NCBI GenBank assembly: GCA_951406725.2
Contig: OX597815.1
Coordinates: forward strand, 177,382,001 to 177,446,000
Length of the DNA: 64,000 nt
Direction of reading: 5' to 3'
From: Octopus vulgaris
Lineage: Eukaryota
Made by a program: the position numbers. Shown piece by piece: positions 26,135 through 29,100 of this stretch. How positions within the stretch are numbered: the stretch's first letter is position 1; each line of letters begins with the position of its first letter.

Positions 26135-29100
26135 TCTTTAACTTTTGGCCCGTCTGCACGTTCTGAGTTCAAATTCCGCCGAGGTTAACTATGCCTTTCA
26201 TCCTTTCGGGGTCAAAGAGATAAGTACCAGTCGACCACCGGGGTCTATGTAGTCGACTTATCCCCTCCCACCAAATTGCTGACCTTCTGCCAAAATTTGA
26301 AACCAAAATTAAAGAAATTTGTGTTAAAAGAATAACATTTTAATATTAGAAAATTCGATAACGTTTCAGTCTTTAGAAATATTCTAATTATTGCTTGGAA
26401 TGTTTCATTATTTTAATGATGAATCCATTATAAATTTTTGTAGAAGCAACAGCGGTTGGTCGGTTCTAGCTTGAGAGAATCTTTTGGAATCGGCGTCATC
26501 ATACTTTAGCAAGGAATCATGAACACGCGGGTTTCCCTAAAATGTTCTTTAATTACCAATATCAGTCGGAGAGCTATCAAAGACGCCGAGATCCTAATTT
26601 GTCAGAGTTTCCCCCGTGAAATAGAGGAATTAGAAGACATTGCTTGTTACAACATCGGCACAATCGACTCGGGCCTCTCTCACCCTATTGATTTTGTCTC
26701 CAATGAGATTATAACAAAATATGTACAGTTAAAATCAATTCTTCAGAACCTTGAAGCCCACAACTCATTAATTAGAACCTGGGTGACGTTTATTTCTCGG
26801 GAATTGCGGACGTTCAAAGATACTGGCTGTTTAACTTCGGAAGAATCGTATTCTAAGTTACAACAAGTGGCTGATTATTGCAAACAATCTTTGGATAATC
26901 TCTCTGCCTACGTGTCTCAGATTGAGGAACTGACGGAGAAATGTAACAGTTACGAAGATAAGGTTTTCTATCAAGAACTGGAATACCTCAATAAGCGTCA
27001 CTTATGCCGGATTAATTCGATGCCAGAAGAAATAAGAGAGAAATTCCTCATTCTGACCAGTGTAATCTACAGTATTCTTGTAATATTGCGACCGATTCAG
27101 TCTGCAAGGAATTGATCTCCGGATACCGTTAATTAGTTTCAATATTAGCAGAACTGTTTTTCTCCTGTTTCATCTTTGGAATCGATTTTAATTGAAGCAA
27201 TTCTTTTTTCTTTACCCATTGTTTGTTAACCGTTAATGTCATAAACGCCTTCACACAGAAGTAGACATGGATGCGAGATTCGTATTGGATTTATGTTTTG
27301 ATAATTCACTTCTTGATATCTTAGAGAAGGAGAGCGGCGAGTTGGCAGAATCGTTAGCACCTCGAAATGCTTAGAGGTATTTCGTCTGCTGCTACGTTCC
27401 GTGTTCAAATTCCGCCGAGGTCGACTTTGCCTTTCACCCTTTCGGGGCCGATGGATTAAGTACCAGTTGCGTACTGGGGTCGATCTAATCGACTGGCCCC
27501 TCTCATCAAATGTCAGCCCTTTTGCCTATAACAGAAAGGAGAATCGTTAGCCACCTCCCCCGGGCTAAATGCTTAGCGACATTCTCTAGAATAGTCGAAA
27601 CCAATATTCTACAGAGGGAAAGGCATAAACGTCACGCGCTCATATTCTGTTGTCCCTTCTAAGTCTCAATCAATAGAATAATGTACCAAAAAGAATTGTG
27701 TTGATATAATTTTTTCTCCTCTTTCTCTTGAAGCATCATTTAAATCAATAATTATACCCATTAATGCACATGTATTTAGATATGTGTATGTCGGGGAATA
27801 GCAACTGATTAATTATATGCCTCTGCATTTCAGAAATGTAACCCTTCTTTCGCTGTTTGCATTCATAAAGCGATGAAATTATTATATTTAGAGATGCCAA
27901 GTCTTTTAACTCGGATACAAGCTGTGCACGAAGCCCCGATCCTCTCTATAACATAAATCAATAAAACGCTTTAATGGAAAACACATTTTAATACAAAGCT
28001 AAATAAAATTTGATGAATCGTTTAAGAAGTAATTGTCATAGGATTGGCTGTTCCACTATTTTAAAGTATACTTAGTGTTTTGATATTTAAACTGGCAATA
28101 GCACAGCTGTTTGTTTTTTTTAATATTCAATTGGCCTTATTGTTAAAACGGCCTTCCTGAAAATCAAATAAATAAAGAATAAAAACATATGAACAGGTGT
28201 TGCAAACAGCATTAGTTGTCTCTTAAAATCGTTCAAATGATCAACCCATCCAAAGATATGTTAACACACTGGGAATAGAAATTATTATTAGGGCAACTAA
28301 TGGTGAAGCTTGTTTTTACACGCATCGAAAAGAGTTATTTTTTATTTGTTTGTAAATACCCAGGATATTATTGAAACCTTGTTATATGCTGAAATTTACT
28401 TTAAGAGACTTGATTAGTTATTCATTTGAAGGACAGAGAATAAGATATATGCGTTTATTCCAGATAGAAGTTGAATATTTAATAAATTATTACGCAGTAT
28501 GTATAGAGATTAATATTCTGGTTATATTCCATTATTGTAGAATGTTTAATGTGTCCATTAATGATTTAGAATTTTGTGAAATTTCAAACTTAACATCTAA
28601 TTCGGGGTCTGCATACAATCTATGTTCTTACTAGCGAAGTTTTGAATCCATTCCCGTTAATGAGGAAGGGCTGCCCTTTTCTGAAACTCATAGGGAAAGT
28701 GCCACTCACCTATTTATAATGTAACTGATATTCGCCCTAATGTCTTTGTAAAAACAGGTGTCATTCACGCACTTGCGTCTTTCTCAACTCTTACAAAACT
28801 TGAGAAAACTTTAGATTCGATTTGATTAAGAGCAAATGAATTATGTTAACATAAAGTATGATAGGAAAGACGGCGTCTATTTGAATTGGACATATATGAA
28901 ATTTGATTGCTTGCTTTCTTGAAATTATTTGTCTACGTTTAACAAAGATCTGTATATTGACGAGTATTCAAAATAGGGAGAAAATGCACCGAAATCATTA
29001 TAAGACAATGATTGCAGAGTCTCACCAAATCACTTTCAAAATAATGCAAGGCATAAGCAATAGCATCCCCAAATATTTATCGATAACAAAAGTAATTTTT

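What the first reader, a model, noticed from the sequence alone, without database searches (positions are those of the whole stretch)
26519..27115. Intact intronless PA28/REG-like gene with a rewired activation loop and C-terminus
Seen: this is the only long uninterrupted non-repetitive ORF in 64 kb of decayed repeats. It is collinear with the four-helix PA28 fold. Established: PA28 activates the 20S proteasome through the conserved PRIEDGNNFG-type loop and C-terminal tail. PA28gamma carries a KKRR NLS in the insert between helices 1 and 2, and invertebrates typically have one conserved, multi-exon REG gene. Here the loop reads RELRTFKDTG, the insert is short with no basic NLS, and the tail ends SARN instead of a hydrophobic/Tyr end. 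Inference: a lineage-specific retrogene or paralog, kept open despite extreme divergence. It could be a non-activating or inhibitory subunit or a repurposed heptamer ring, possibly part of an expanded family.
Basis: partly seen in the sequence, partly recalled or inferred. Interest (0 to 1): 0.82.

Follow-up and report, generated by a model that had tools for sequence, protein, structure and literature searches.

The report
Divergent PA28-like gene in octopus
This is a real, single-exon octopus gene descended from the PA28 proteasome activator that keeps the four-helix fold but has replaced the loop and tail that normally switch the proteasome on, so it probably does something else.

Summary
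The ORF at 26519..27115 (+), 198 codons, is there exactly as described. It is a PA28/11S homologue.

- **Family match:** Pfam PA28_C passes its gathering score, 24.3 against 20.9 bits. A five-sequence family profile matches the solved PA28gamma chain end to end, 73 bits, E 2e-19.
- **Fold:** an AlphaFold model (pLDDT 83) gives four long helices. All 15 listed PDB fold matches are PA28.
- **Relatives:** same-architecture proteins exist in Octopus vulgaris (198 aa, 86%) and Argonauta hians (200 aa, 44%), plus unnamed fragments.
- **Selection:** under simulated neutral drift to 44% identity the frame stayed open in 0.2% of 1000 runs. The gene is therefore maintained, not a pseudogene.
- **Lost features:** the loop aligned to PRIEDGNNFG reads RELRTFKDTG, 1 of 10 identical. 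It is among the least conserved parts of the family. The gamma insert is missing, and the tail varies in length between species.

Best reading: a fast-evolving PA28gamma-derived gene that no longer opens the 20S gate in the canonical way. No retrogene hallmarks were found. Whether octopus also keeps a canonical PA28gamma, and whether this gene is expressed or forms rings, stayed unchecked.

The parts
26519..27115 (+). Complete single-exon coding sequence, 198 codons plus TGA; PA28-like protein (P0001)
26507..26509 (+). In-frame TAG directly upstream of the ATG; fixes M1 as the start within this exon
26525..26647 (+). Predicted helix 1 (residues 3-43); weak collinear PA28_N match at residues 18-40
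26648..26686 (+). Short helix1-helix2 linker (residues 44-56) in place of the roughly 48-residue PA28gamma homolog-specific insert; no K or R in residues 41-60
26687..26803 (+). Predicted helix 2 (residues 57-95), with W88 aligned to the conserved W of PA28gamma
26798..26827 (+). RELRTFKDTG (residues 94-103), aligned without gaps to the PA28gamma activation loop PRIEDGNNFG; 1 of 10 identical
26840..26950 (+). Predicted helix 3 (residues 108-144)
26960..27106 (+). Predicted helix 4 (residues 148-196)
27089..27112 (+). C-terminal RPIQSARN (residues 191-198); by the alignment, 3 residues shorter than the PA28gamma chain. Identical in O. vulgaris, extended by 7 residues in P0006, absent in Argonauta
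26429..26434 (+). TATAAA 90 bp upstream of the ATG; candidate TATA box (inference only)

Best explanation
A real, selectively maintained protein-coding gene of octopods, descended from the PA28/11S/REG proteasome-activator family and closest to PA28gamma. It is encoded here in one exon. It keeps the four-helix-bundle subunit fold. It has lost the gamma-type insert (and the NLS the review places there), has replaced 9 of the 10 activation-loop residues, and carries a short C-terminal tail of variable length. The two elements that canonical PA28 uses to dock on the 20S alpha ring and open its gate are among the least constrained parts of this family. The most likely mechanism is therefore a neofunctionalised PA28-like subunit that does not open the 20S gate in the canonical way. 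It could mix into or compete with canonical PA28 rings as a modulator, or it could act as a helical-bundle scaffold away from the proteasome. Shown: gene intact, homology, predicted fold, conservation across octopods, and the pattern of constraint. Inferred: ring formation, loss of activation, and any modulatory role. Its origin (DNA duplication, retroposition, or simply the fast-evolving sole orthologue) is unresolved.
For: Homology:
- Pfam PA28_C scores 24.3 bits against a cut-off of 20.9, E 3e-5, residues 62-184 on profile positions 5-129 of 145.
- PA28_C also passes in P0002 (30.9) and P0005 (59.4).
- The profile of alignment A2 matches PDB PA28gamma 7yqd_A at 73 bits, E 2.2e-19, positions 7-202 against 7-247. 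PA28alpha scores 52.7, PA28beta 38.7 and Plasmodium PA28 33.4 bits.
- The ESM Atlas feature search gives PA28_C clusters as its top three hits, scores 0.92-0.93.

Fold:
- The AF2 model has mean pLDDT 83.2 and pTM 0.78, with helices at 3-43, 57-95, 108-144 and 148-196.
- All 15 listed Foldseek PDB matches are PA28 chains, TMq 0.51-0.75, probability 1.00.

Maintenance:
- O. vulgaris XP_036355773.1 is 198 aa, 86% identical and has no indel.
- Argonauta hians Ahia01_001103900 is 200 aa and 44% identical.
- The neutral simulation kept the frame open in 10.3%, 0.9% and 0.2% of 1000 runs at 86%, 67% and 44% identity.
- Against Argonauta, helices are 72 of 160 identical and non-helix parts 5 of 27, Fisher p 0.011.

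Loss of the canonical determinants:
- The loop is 1 of 10 identical to PA28gamma.
- It is not conserved inside the family: RELRTFKDTG, REFQTFKDAG, REFKTVKDAG, HDANRPNDMA, SRKGSPLELR.
- The tail is SARN in two Octopus species, 7 residues longer in P0006 and 6 residues shorter in Argonauta.
Against: - No tool could show that octopus also has a canonical PA28gamma. The three word-index searches returned none. 'Paralogue' therefore rests on my recollection and on Fort 2015's general picture.
- Very divergent 11S activators still open the gate with different loops: PA26 through Glu102, and Plasmodium PA28 (review passages).
- An acidic residue is kept at the loop position of D101: D in 4 of 4 octopod sequences and E in P0005 and P0007. 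By it aligns with the second Asn of GNN. A working divergent loop is not excluded.
- The tail RPIQSARN is identical in 8 of 8 positions to O. vulgaris and in 7 of 8 to P0006, so it is constrained within Octopus.
- PA28_N is below its cut-off in 5 of 5 family proteins, and PA28_C is below it in Argonauta (16.8).
- No Foldseek match reaches E <= 0.001; the best is 1.3e-3.
- The AF2 alignment held only 5 sequences, and one of the five models had pLDDT 43.3.
- P0004 (109 aa) ends early and could be a disrupted copy.
- There is no expression evidence and no dN/dS, because no orthologue DNA was available.
Confidence: 0.6

Rival explanations
1. It is still a genuine 20S proteasome activator. It forms a heptamer ring and opens the gate through a divergent loop, as Trypanosoma PA26 and Plasmodium PA28 do.
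For: The fold and full-length collinearity with PA28 are retained. An acidic residue is conserved at the loop position of D101 in all 6 sequences that cover it. PA26 acts through a loop glutamate, and 11S tails bind mainly through the terminal carboxylate (review passages). The tail is conserved within Octopus.
Against: The loop is 1 of 10 identical to PA28gamma and 3 of 12 identical between Octopus and Argonauta, less than the helices. Tail length differs by up to 13 residues among octopod sequences.
Confidence: 0.2
2. It is not an extra copy but the only PA28 gene of octopods: the orthologue of PA28gamma after an episode of very fast evolution.
For: None of the three word-index searches returned a canonical cephalopod PA28. 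Four literature searches found no paper on cephalopod PA28. Fort 2015 (passages) reports single PA28 genes in the non-vertebrate, non-tunicate deuterostomes it names.
Against: Those searches find only proteins that share exact 5-residue words with the query, so missing a canonical PA28 means little. Fort 2015 describes PSME3-type genes as slow-evolving wherever they are single. I recall canonical PSME3 annotations in Octopus, but did not verify this here.
Confidence: 0.12
3. It is a processed pseudogene or chance ORF that happens to be open.
For: It sits in repeat-rich DNA between two SINE-like copies. There is no expression evidence. P0004 is truncated.
Against: Same-length open frames occur in O. 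vulgaris and Argonauta at 86% and 44% identity. Only 0.2% of 1000 neutral runs stayed open at 44%. Helices are more conserved than loops. Only 0.10 chance ORFs of this size are expected per window.
Confidence: 0.03
4. Origin by retroposition: an intronless retrocopy of a multi-exon PA28 gene.
For: The whole fold is coded in one exon. A degraded LINE with endonuclease and RT lies 3-5 kb upstream, showing that the retroposition machinery has been active in this genome.
Against: No A-run of 8 or more lies in 27000-30000. The nearest AATAAA is about 845 bp past the stop. No flanking direct repeats were found apart from the SINE copies. P0004 and P0007 both break off right after the column of S107 and continue with V. 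That fits a GT intron start there, so the divergent lineage may have had introns.
Confidence: 0.3

Closest known systems
PA28gamma / REGgamma / PSME3 (11S proteasome activator)
   Same: Full-length collinear profile match (73 bits, E 2.2e-19). Four-helix-bundle fold (TMq 0.68 to 7yqc_A). Conserved anchors such as W88 and the FP..EL stretch of helix 1.
   Different: About 56 residues shorter than the 254-residue chain. The insert between helices 1 and 2 is absent, and with it the NLS the review places there. The activation loop is 1 of 10 identical. By the tail is 3 residues shorter, and it ends in Asn. That PA28gamma ends in Tyr is recalled and was not shown by any search.
Fast-evolving PA28 paralogues: vertebrate PA28alpha/beta and tunicate PSMEb/c/d (Fort et al. 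2015, PMC4453063, passages read)
   Same: A long-branch PA28 derivative that is conserved within its own lineage. This is the pattern the paper interprets as neofunctionalisation after duplication.
   Different: PA28alpha and PA28beta keep the activation loop (review PMC7915322); this family does not. A duplication in cephalopods has not been shown here.
Trypanosoma PA26 and Plasmodium PfPA28
   Same: Very divergent 11S proteins with non-consensus loops. PfPA28 matches the family profile at 33.4 bits and the model at TMq 0.68.
   Different: Those are the sole, experimentally active 11S activators of their organisms. No activity is known here, and the loop is not conserved even among octopods.

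Membership tests
PA28 / 11S / REG family (Pfam PF02252 + PF02251) | PA28_C domain at or above the curated gathering score | tested here: met
   24.3 against 20.9 bits. Of the 5 family proteins scanned, 3 pass (window, P0002 at 30.9, P0005 at 59.4). P0003 is below at 16.8 and P0004 has no match.
PA28 / 11S / REG family (Pfam PF02252 + PF02251) | PA28_N domain at or above the gathering score | tested here: not met
   16.3 against 21.2 bits, residues 18-40. The match is in the right place and order, but it is below cut-off in 5 of 5 family proteins. The family profile does align helix 1 to PA28gamma.
PA28 / 11S / REG family (Pfam PF02252 + PF02251) | Four long antiparallel helices with the PA28 subunit topology | tested here: met
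   AF2 model with pLDDT 83.2. All 15 listed Foldseek PDB matches are PA28, TMq up to 0.75, but the best E-value is only 1.3e-3.
PA28 / 11S / REG family (Pfam PF02252 + PF02251) | Conserved activation loop between helices 2 and 3 | tested here: not met
   RELRTFKDTG against PRIEDGNNFG, 1 of 10 identical in a gap-free alignment. The loop varies within the family.
PA28 / 11S / REG family (Pfam PF02252 + PF02251) | C-terminal tail of about 10 residues that docks between 20S alpha subunits | tested here: inconclusive
   The tail is 3 residues shorter than in the PA28gamma chain. It is conserved within Octopus, absent in Argonauta and longer in P0006. Docking itself was not tested.
PA28 / 11S / REG family (Pfam PF02252 + PF02251) | Heptameric ring; binding and activation of the 20S proteasome | not testable with these tools
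   Needs biochemistry or a full heptamer plus alpha-ring model; see Tried and rejected.
Processed retrogene | Intronless coding sequence | tested here: met
   One uninterrupted frame covers the whole fold.
Processed retrogene | Poly(A) remnant and target-site duplications | tested here: not met
   No A-run of 8 or more in 27000-30000. No flanking direct repeats except two SINE-like copies. An old insertion could have lost them.
Processed retrogene | Multi-exon parent gene elsewhere in the genome | not testable with these tools
   No cephalopod genome collection was available. The open genome collection holds bacteria and archaea only.

The most novel reading that the evidence does not exclude
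Octopods, and perhaps a wider group that includes the unnamed P0005/P0007 organisms, carry an old, conserved PA28-derived ring protein. It has given up 20S gate opening and acts as a non-activating cap, as a dominant-negative partner of PA28gamma, or as a proteasome-independent scaffold. That would be a third independent neofunctionalisation of PA28, after vertebrates and tunicates, and the first in which the activation loop itself was released from constraint.
Probability: 0.35. Interest if true: 0.6.

Novelty: new variant of a known kind. Interest (0 to 1): 0.45.

Why it matters
PA28/11S activators are defined functionally by a highly conserved activation loop and a docking tail. A lineage that has kept the subunit fold under selection across the Octopus-Argonauta split, while letting exactly those two elements drift, is a natural separation-of-function variant. 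It could show what the PA28 scaffold does besides gate opening, an open question for PA28gamma, whose proteasome-independent roles are debated. It would also add a protostome case to the parallel 'slow PSME3 plus fast paralogues' pattern that Fort et al. 2015 describe for vertebrates and tunicates. The protein is so far only an 'uncharacterized protein' in one RefSeq annotation. Four full-text searches found no paper on cephalopod PA28.

Tried and rejected
- **Self-association:** Complex prediction with three copies gave 'no answer', score 0.00 in both runs. The controls were not run and my alignment was not used. This is no evidence either way.
- **Cluster look-up:** The listing of cluster members was not sent because the shared database is switched off. 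Accessions and contig context of P0001 and P0002 were not obtained.
- **First structure prediction attempt:** it failed because the queue was full. It was repeated with alignment A2.
- **Looking for a canonical cephalopod PA28:** the word-index searches with the single protein, A2 and A3 (the last at E <= 10) returned only members of the divergent family. The third did not list P0003 or P0004. It gave 4 proteins at E <= 0.001 out of 1.84 billion representatives, none of them canonical.
- **dN/dS:** not possible, because no orthologue DNA was available.
- **Extra copies in the window:** tblastn with all 7 family proteins found only the one locus; every other hit had E >= 0.12.
- **tRNA-derived SINE heads:** ARAGORN found 0 tRNA genes.
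- **Chance ORF or pseudogene:** rejected.
- **Gene captured by a mobile element:** considered because two SINE-like copies flank the gene. With 9 copies of the SINE core in 64 kb and no other element structure, I treat this as coincidence.
- **Supplements of Fort et al. 2015:** the species tables were closed. They might list PA28 copy numbers in molluscs.

Full report
**1. Observation**

The window holds an ATG at 26519 and a TGA at 27113-27115, giving a 198-codon frame on the + strand. A TAG lies in frame at 26507-26509, so the frame cannot be extended upstream within this exon.

The window has 23 ATG-ORFs of 100 aa or more. The two of similar size belong to one frame-broken non-LTR retrotransposon:
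- 21215-21787 (190 aa) carries an Exo_endo_phos domain, 30.3 bits.
- 22213-22872 (219 aa) lies next to an RVT_1 piece at 22779-23270, in another frame, 38 bits.

The remaining ORFs look like translated microsatellites by eye. The coding DNA of the finding has no other copy in the window.

From the window's own stop frequency (0.055 per codon), 0.10 open runs of 198 codons or more are expected. Three exist, and two of them lie in the retrotransposon.

**2. What it is**

Four lines of evidence, not all fully independent, say PA28/11S.
- Pfam PA28_C passes its curated cut-off: 24.3 against 20.9 bits, E 3e-5, residues 62-184 on profile positions 5-129 of 145. PA28_N matches weakly in the right place: residues 18-40, 16.3 bits against a cut-off of 21.2.
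- A profile of the five family sequences (A2) hits the solved PA28gamma chain 7yqd_A end to end: 73 bits, E 2.2e-19, positions 7-202 against 7-247. PA28alpha follows at 52.7, PA28beta at 38.7 and Plasmodium PA28 at 33.4 bits. The single sequence alone gives only E 0.02.
- An AlphaFold2 model built on A2 has mean pLDDT 83.2 and pTM 0.78, with long helices at 3-43, 57-95, 108-144 and 148-196. One of its five models was poor, at pLDDT 43.3. All 15 Foldseek PDB matches listed are PA28 chains, with TMq 0.51-0.75 and probability 1.00. No match reaches E <= 0.001; the best is 1.3e-3.
- The ESM Atlas feature search puts PA28_C clusters first, with scores of 0.92-0.93.

**3. Relatives**

The searches returned these proteins:

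| Protein | Source | Length | Identity to the window protein |
|---|---|---|---|
| P0002 | Octopus vulgaris XP_036355773.1, 'uncharacterized protein LOC118761736' | 198 aa | 86%, no indel |
| P0003 | Argonauta hians Ahia01_001103900 | 200 aa | 44% |
| P0004 | unnamed record | 109 aa | 67% |
| P0006 | unnamed record | 89 aa | 80% |
| P0005 | unnamed record | 251 aa | 24% |
| P0007 | unnamed record | 156 aa | 22% |

P0005 scores 59.4 bits on PA28_C. It also has a non-consensus loop (SRKGSPLELR) and a long insert.

In the exhaustive HMMER scan of 1.84 billion representatives, only 4 proteins reached E <= 0.001: the protein itself, P0003, P0004 and P0005. P0005 therefore scores above every canonical PA28 that library holds (assuming it holds them), and the divergent subfamily may reach beyond octopods. 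I did not try to find out which organisms the unnamed records come from.

**4. Is it maintained?**

No orthologue DNA was available, so dN/dS could not be computed. Two substitutes were used.
- A neutral-drift simulation mutated the ORF with transitions and transversions equally frequent overall and no indels, until protein identity fell to a target. The frame stayed open in 10.3%, 0.9% and 0.2% of 1000 runs at 86%, 67% and 44% identity.
- Conservation is uneven in the way a folded protein predicts. Against Argonauta, helices are 72 of 160 identical and non-helix parts 5 of 27 (Fisher p 0.011). Against O. vulgaris the figures are 141 of 160 and 25 of 33 (p 0.09, not significant).

Together with same-length frames in two named species, this makes a pseudogene or chance ORF very unlikely.

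Against this reading, P0004 ends early and might be a broken copy, and there is no expression evidence.

**5. The rewired parts**

In the gap-free alignments, anchored by W88, the PA28gamma loop PRIEDGNNFG faces RELRTFKDTG, so only the final G is shared.

Within the family the loop reads REFQTFKDAG (O. vulgaris), REFKTVKDAG (P0004), HDANRPNDMA (Argonauta) and SRKGSPLELR (P0005). Between Octopus and Argonauta, the 12 residues 96-107 are 3 of 12 identical.

The review PMC7915322 (passages read) makes three relevant points:
- A 10-residue C-terminal tail supplies the binding energy.
- PA28gamma has one NLS in the insert and one at the N-terminus.

In this protein about 48 residues of the insert are absent. 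By the tail is 3 residues shorter than in the PA28gamma chain. It is identical in the two Octopus species (8 of 8). It reads through the window's TGA for 7 more residues in P0006 (tblastn to 27133). It is 6 residues shorter in Argonauta.

One caution: an acidic residue is kept at the position of D101, D in the four octopod sequences and E in P0005 and P0007. It aligns with the second Asn of GNN. From memory, an Asn in this loop is the classic activation-defective mutation site in REGalpha, and PA26 uses a loop glutamate (the latter is in the review passages). A working but different loop is therefore not excluded.

**6. Mechanism**

My best reading (confidence 0.6) is a neofunctionalised PA28gamma-derived subunit. 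It keeps the bundle, and probably the ability to oligomerise, but no longer opens the 20S gate in the canonical way. It could act as a modulator or competitor of canonical PA28, or away from the proteasome.

Rivals:
- Still an activator with a divergent loop (0.2).
- The sole, fast-evolved PA28 orthologue of octopods rather than a paralogue (0.12).
- A pseudogene or chance ORF (0.03).

Origin by retroposition is a separate question (0.3). The coding sequence is intronless, but there is no poly(A) remnant and no target-site duplication. P0004 and P0007 both stop matching right after the column of S107 (codon at 26837-26839) and continue with V and a stop within 3-6 residues. That is what reading into a GT intron would give. 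If so, the divergent lineage had an intron there, and Octopus lost it.

**7. Comparison with what is known**

Fort et al. 2015 (PMC4453063, passages read) describe the same pattern twice. In vertebrates (PA28alpha/beta) and in tunicates (PSMEb/c/d), one slow PSME3-type gene coexists with long-branch paralogues that are conserved within their lineage. The paper reports single PA28 genes in lamprey, lancelet, sea urchin and acorn worm.

The octopod gene would be a protostome example, with the difference that the activation loop itself is not kept.

Four full-text searches found no paper on cephalopod PA28.

**8. What stayed unchecked**

- Whether a canonical PA28gamma exists in the same genome. 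The word-index searches cannot show absence. That Octopus annotations include PSME3 is only my recollection.
- Copy number and synteny across cephalopods.
- dN/dS.
- Expression.
- Ring formation. The one complex job gave no verdict; see Tried and rejected.
- 20S binding or activation.

**9. Verdict**

It is a new variant of a known kind, already present as an uncharacterised RefSeq model. Interest is moderate (0.45). It would rise if the protein proves to be a non-activating ring or the only PA28 of octopods.

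Noticed in passing
window 14834-14952 (+): Full-length 5S rRNA match (Rfam RF00001, 94.5 bits against a gathering score of 38, model positions 1-120 of 120) standing alone in repeat-rich DNA. It could be a dispersed 5S gene, a pseudogene or the head of a 5S-derived SINE.
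   Followed up: no
window 21215-23800 (+): A degraded non-LTR retrotransposon. An Exo_endo_phos endonuclease ORF lies at 21215-21787 and an RVT_1 reverse-transcriptase piece at 22779-23270, in a different frame from the 329-aa open stretch at 21883-22872.
   Followed up: partly
window 26158-26258 and 27394-27494 (+): Two SINE-like copies in the same orientation, 80% identical over 101 nt and 1236 bp apart, bracket the PA28-like gene. The 19-nt core occurs 9 times in the window against 0 expected by chance. ARAGORN finds no tRNA-like head.
   Followed up: partly
window 26837-26839 (codon S107); proteins P0004 and P0007: Two truncated relatives from unnamed records both stop matching right after this aligned column. 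Each continues with V and then a stop within 3-6 residues. The pattern fits a shared phase-0 intron in those species that the window's gene lacks.
   Followed up: no
window 27113-27136: The relative P0006 aligns through the window's TGA stop to the next in-frame stop (tblastn 26867..27133). The stop position, and so the C-terminal length, differs between close species.
   Followed up: partly
window 26040-26135 and many other sites (e.g. 24758-24876, 25650-25700): Long (TA)n and (TG)n/(CA)n microsatellites. These account for most of the other ORFs of 100 aa or more, which have CVCV/YIYI-type translations.
   Followed up: no
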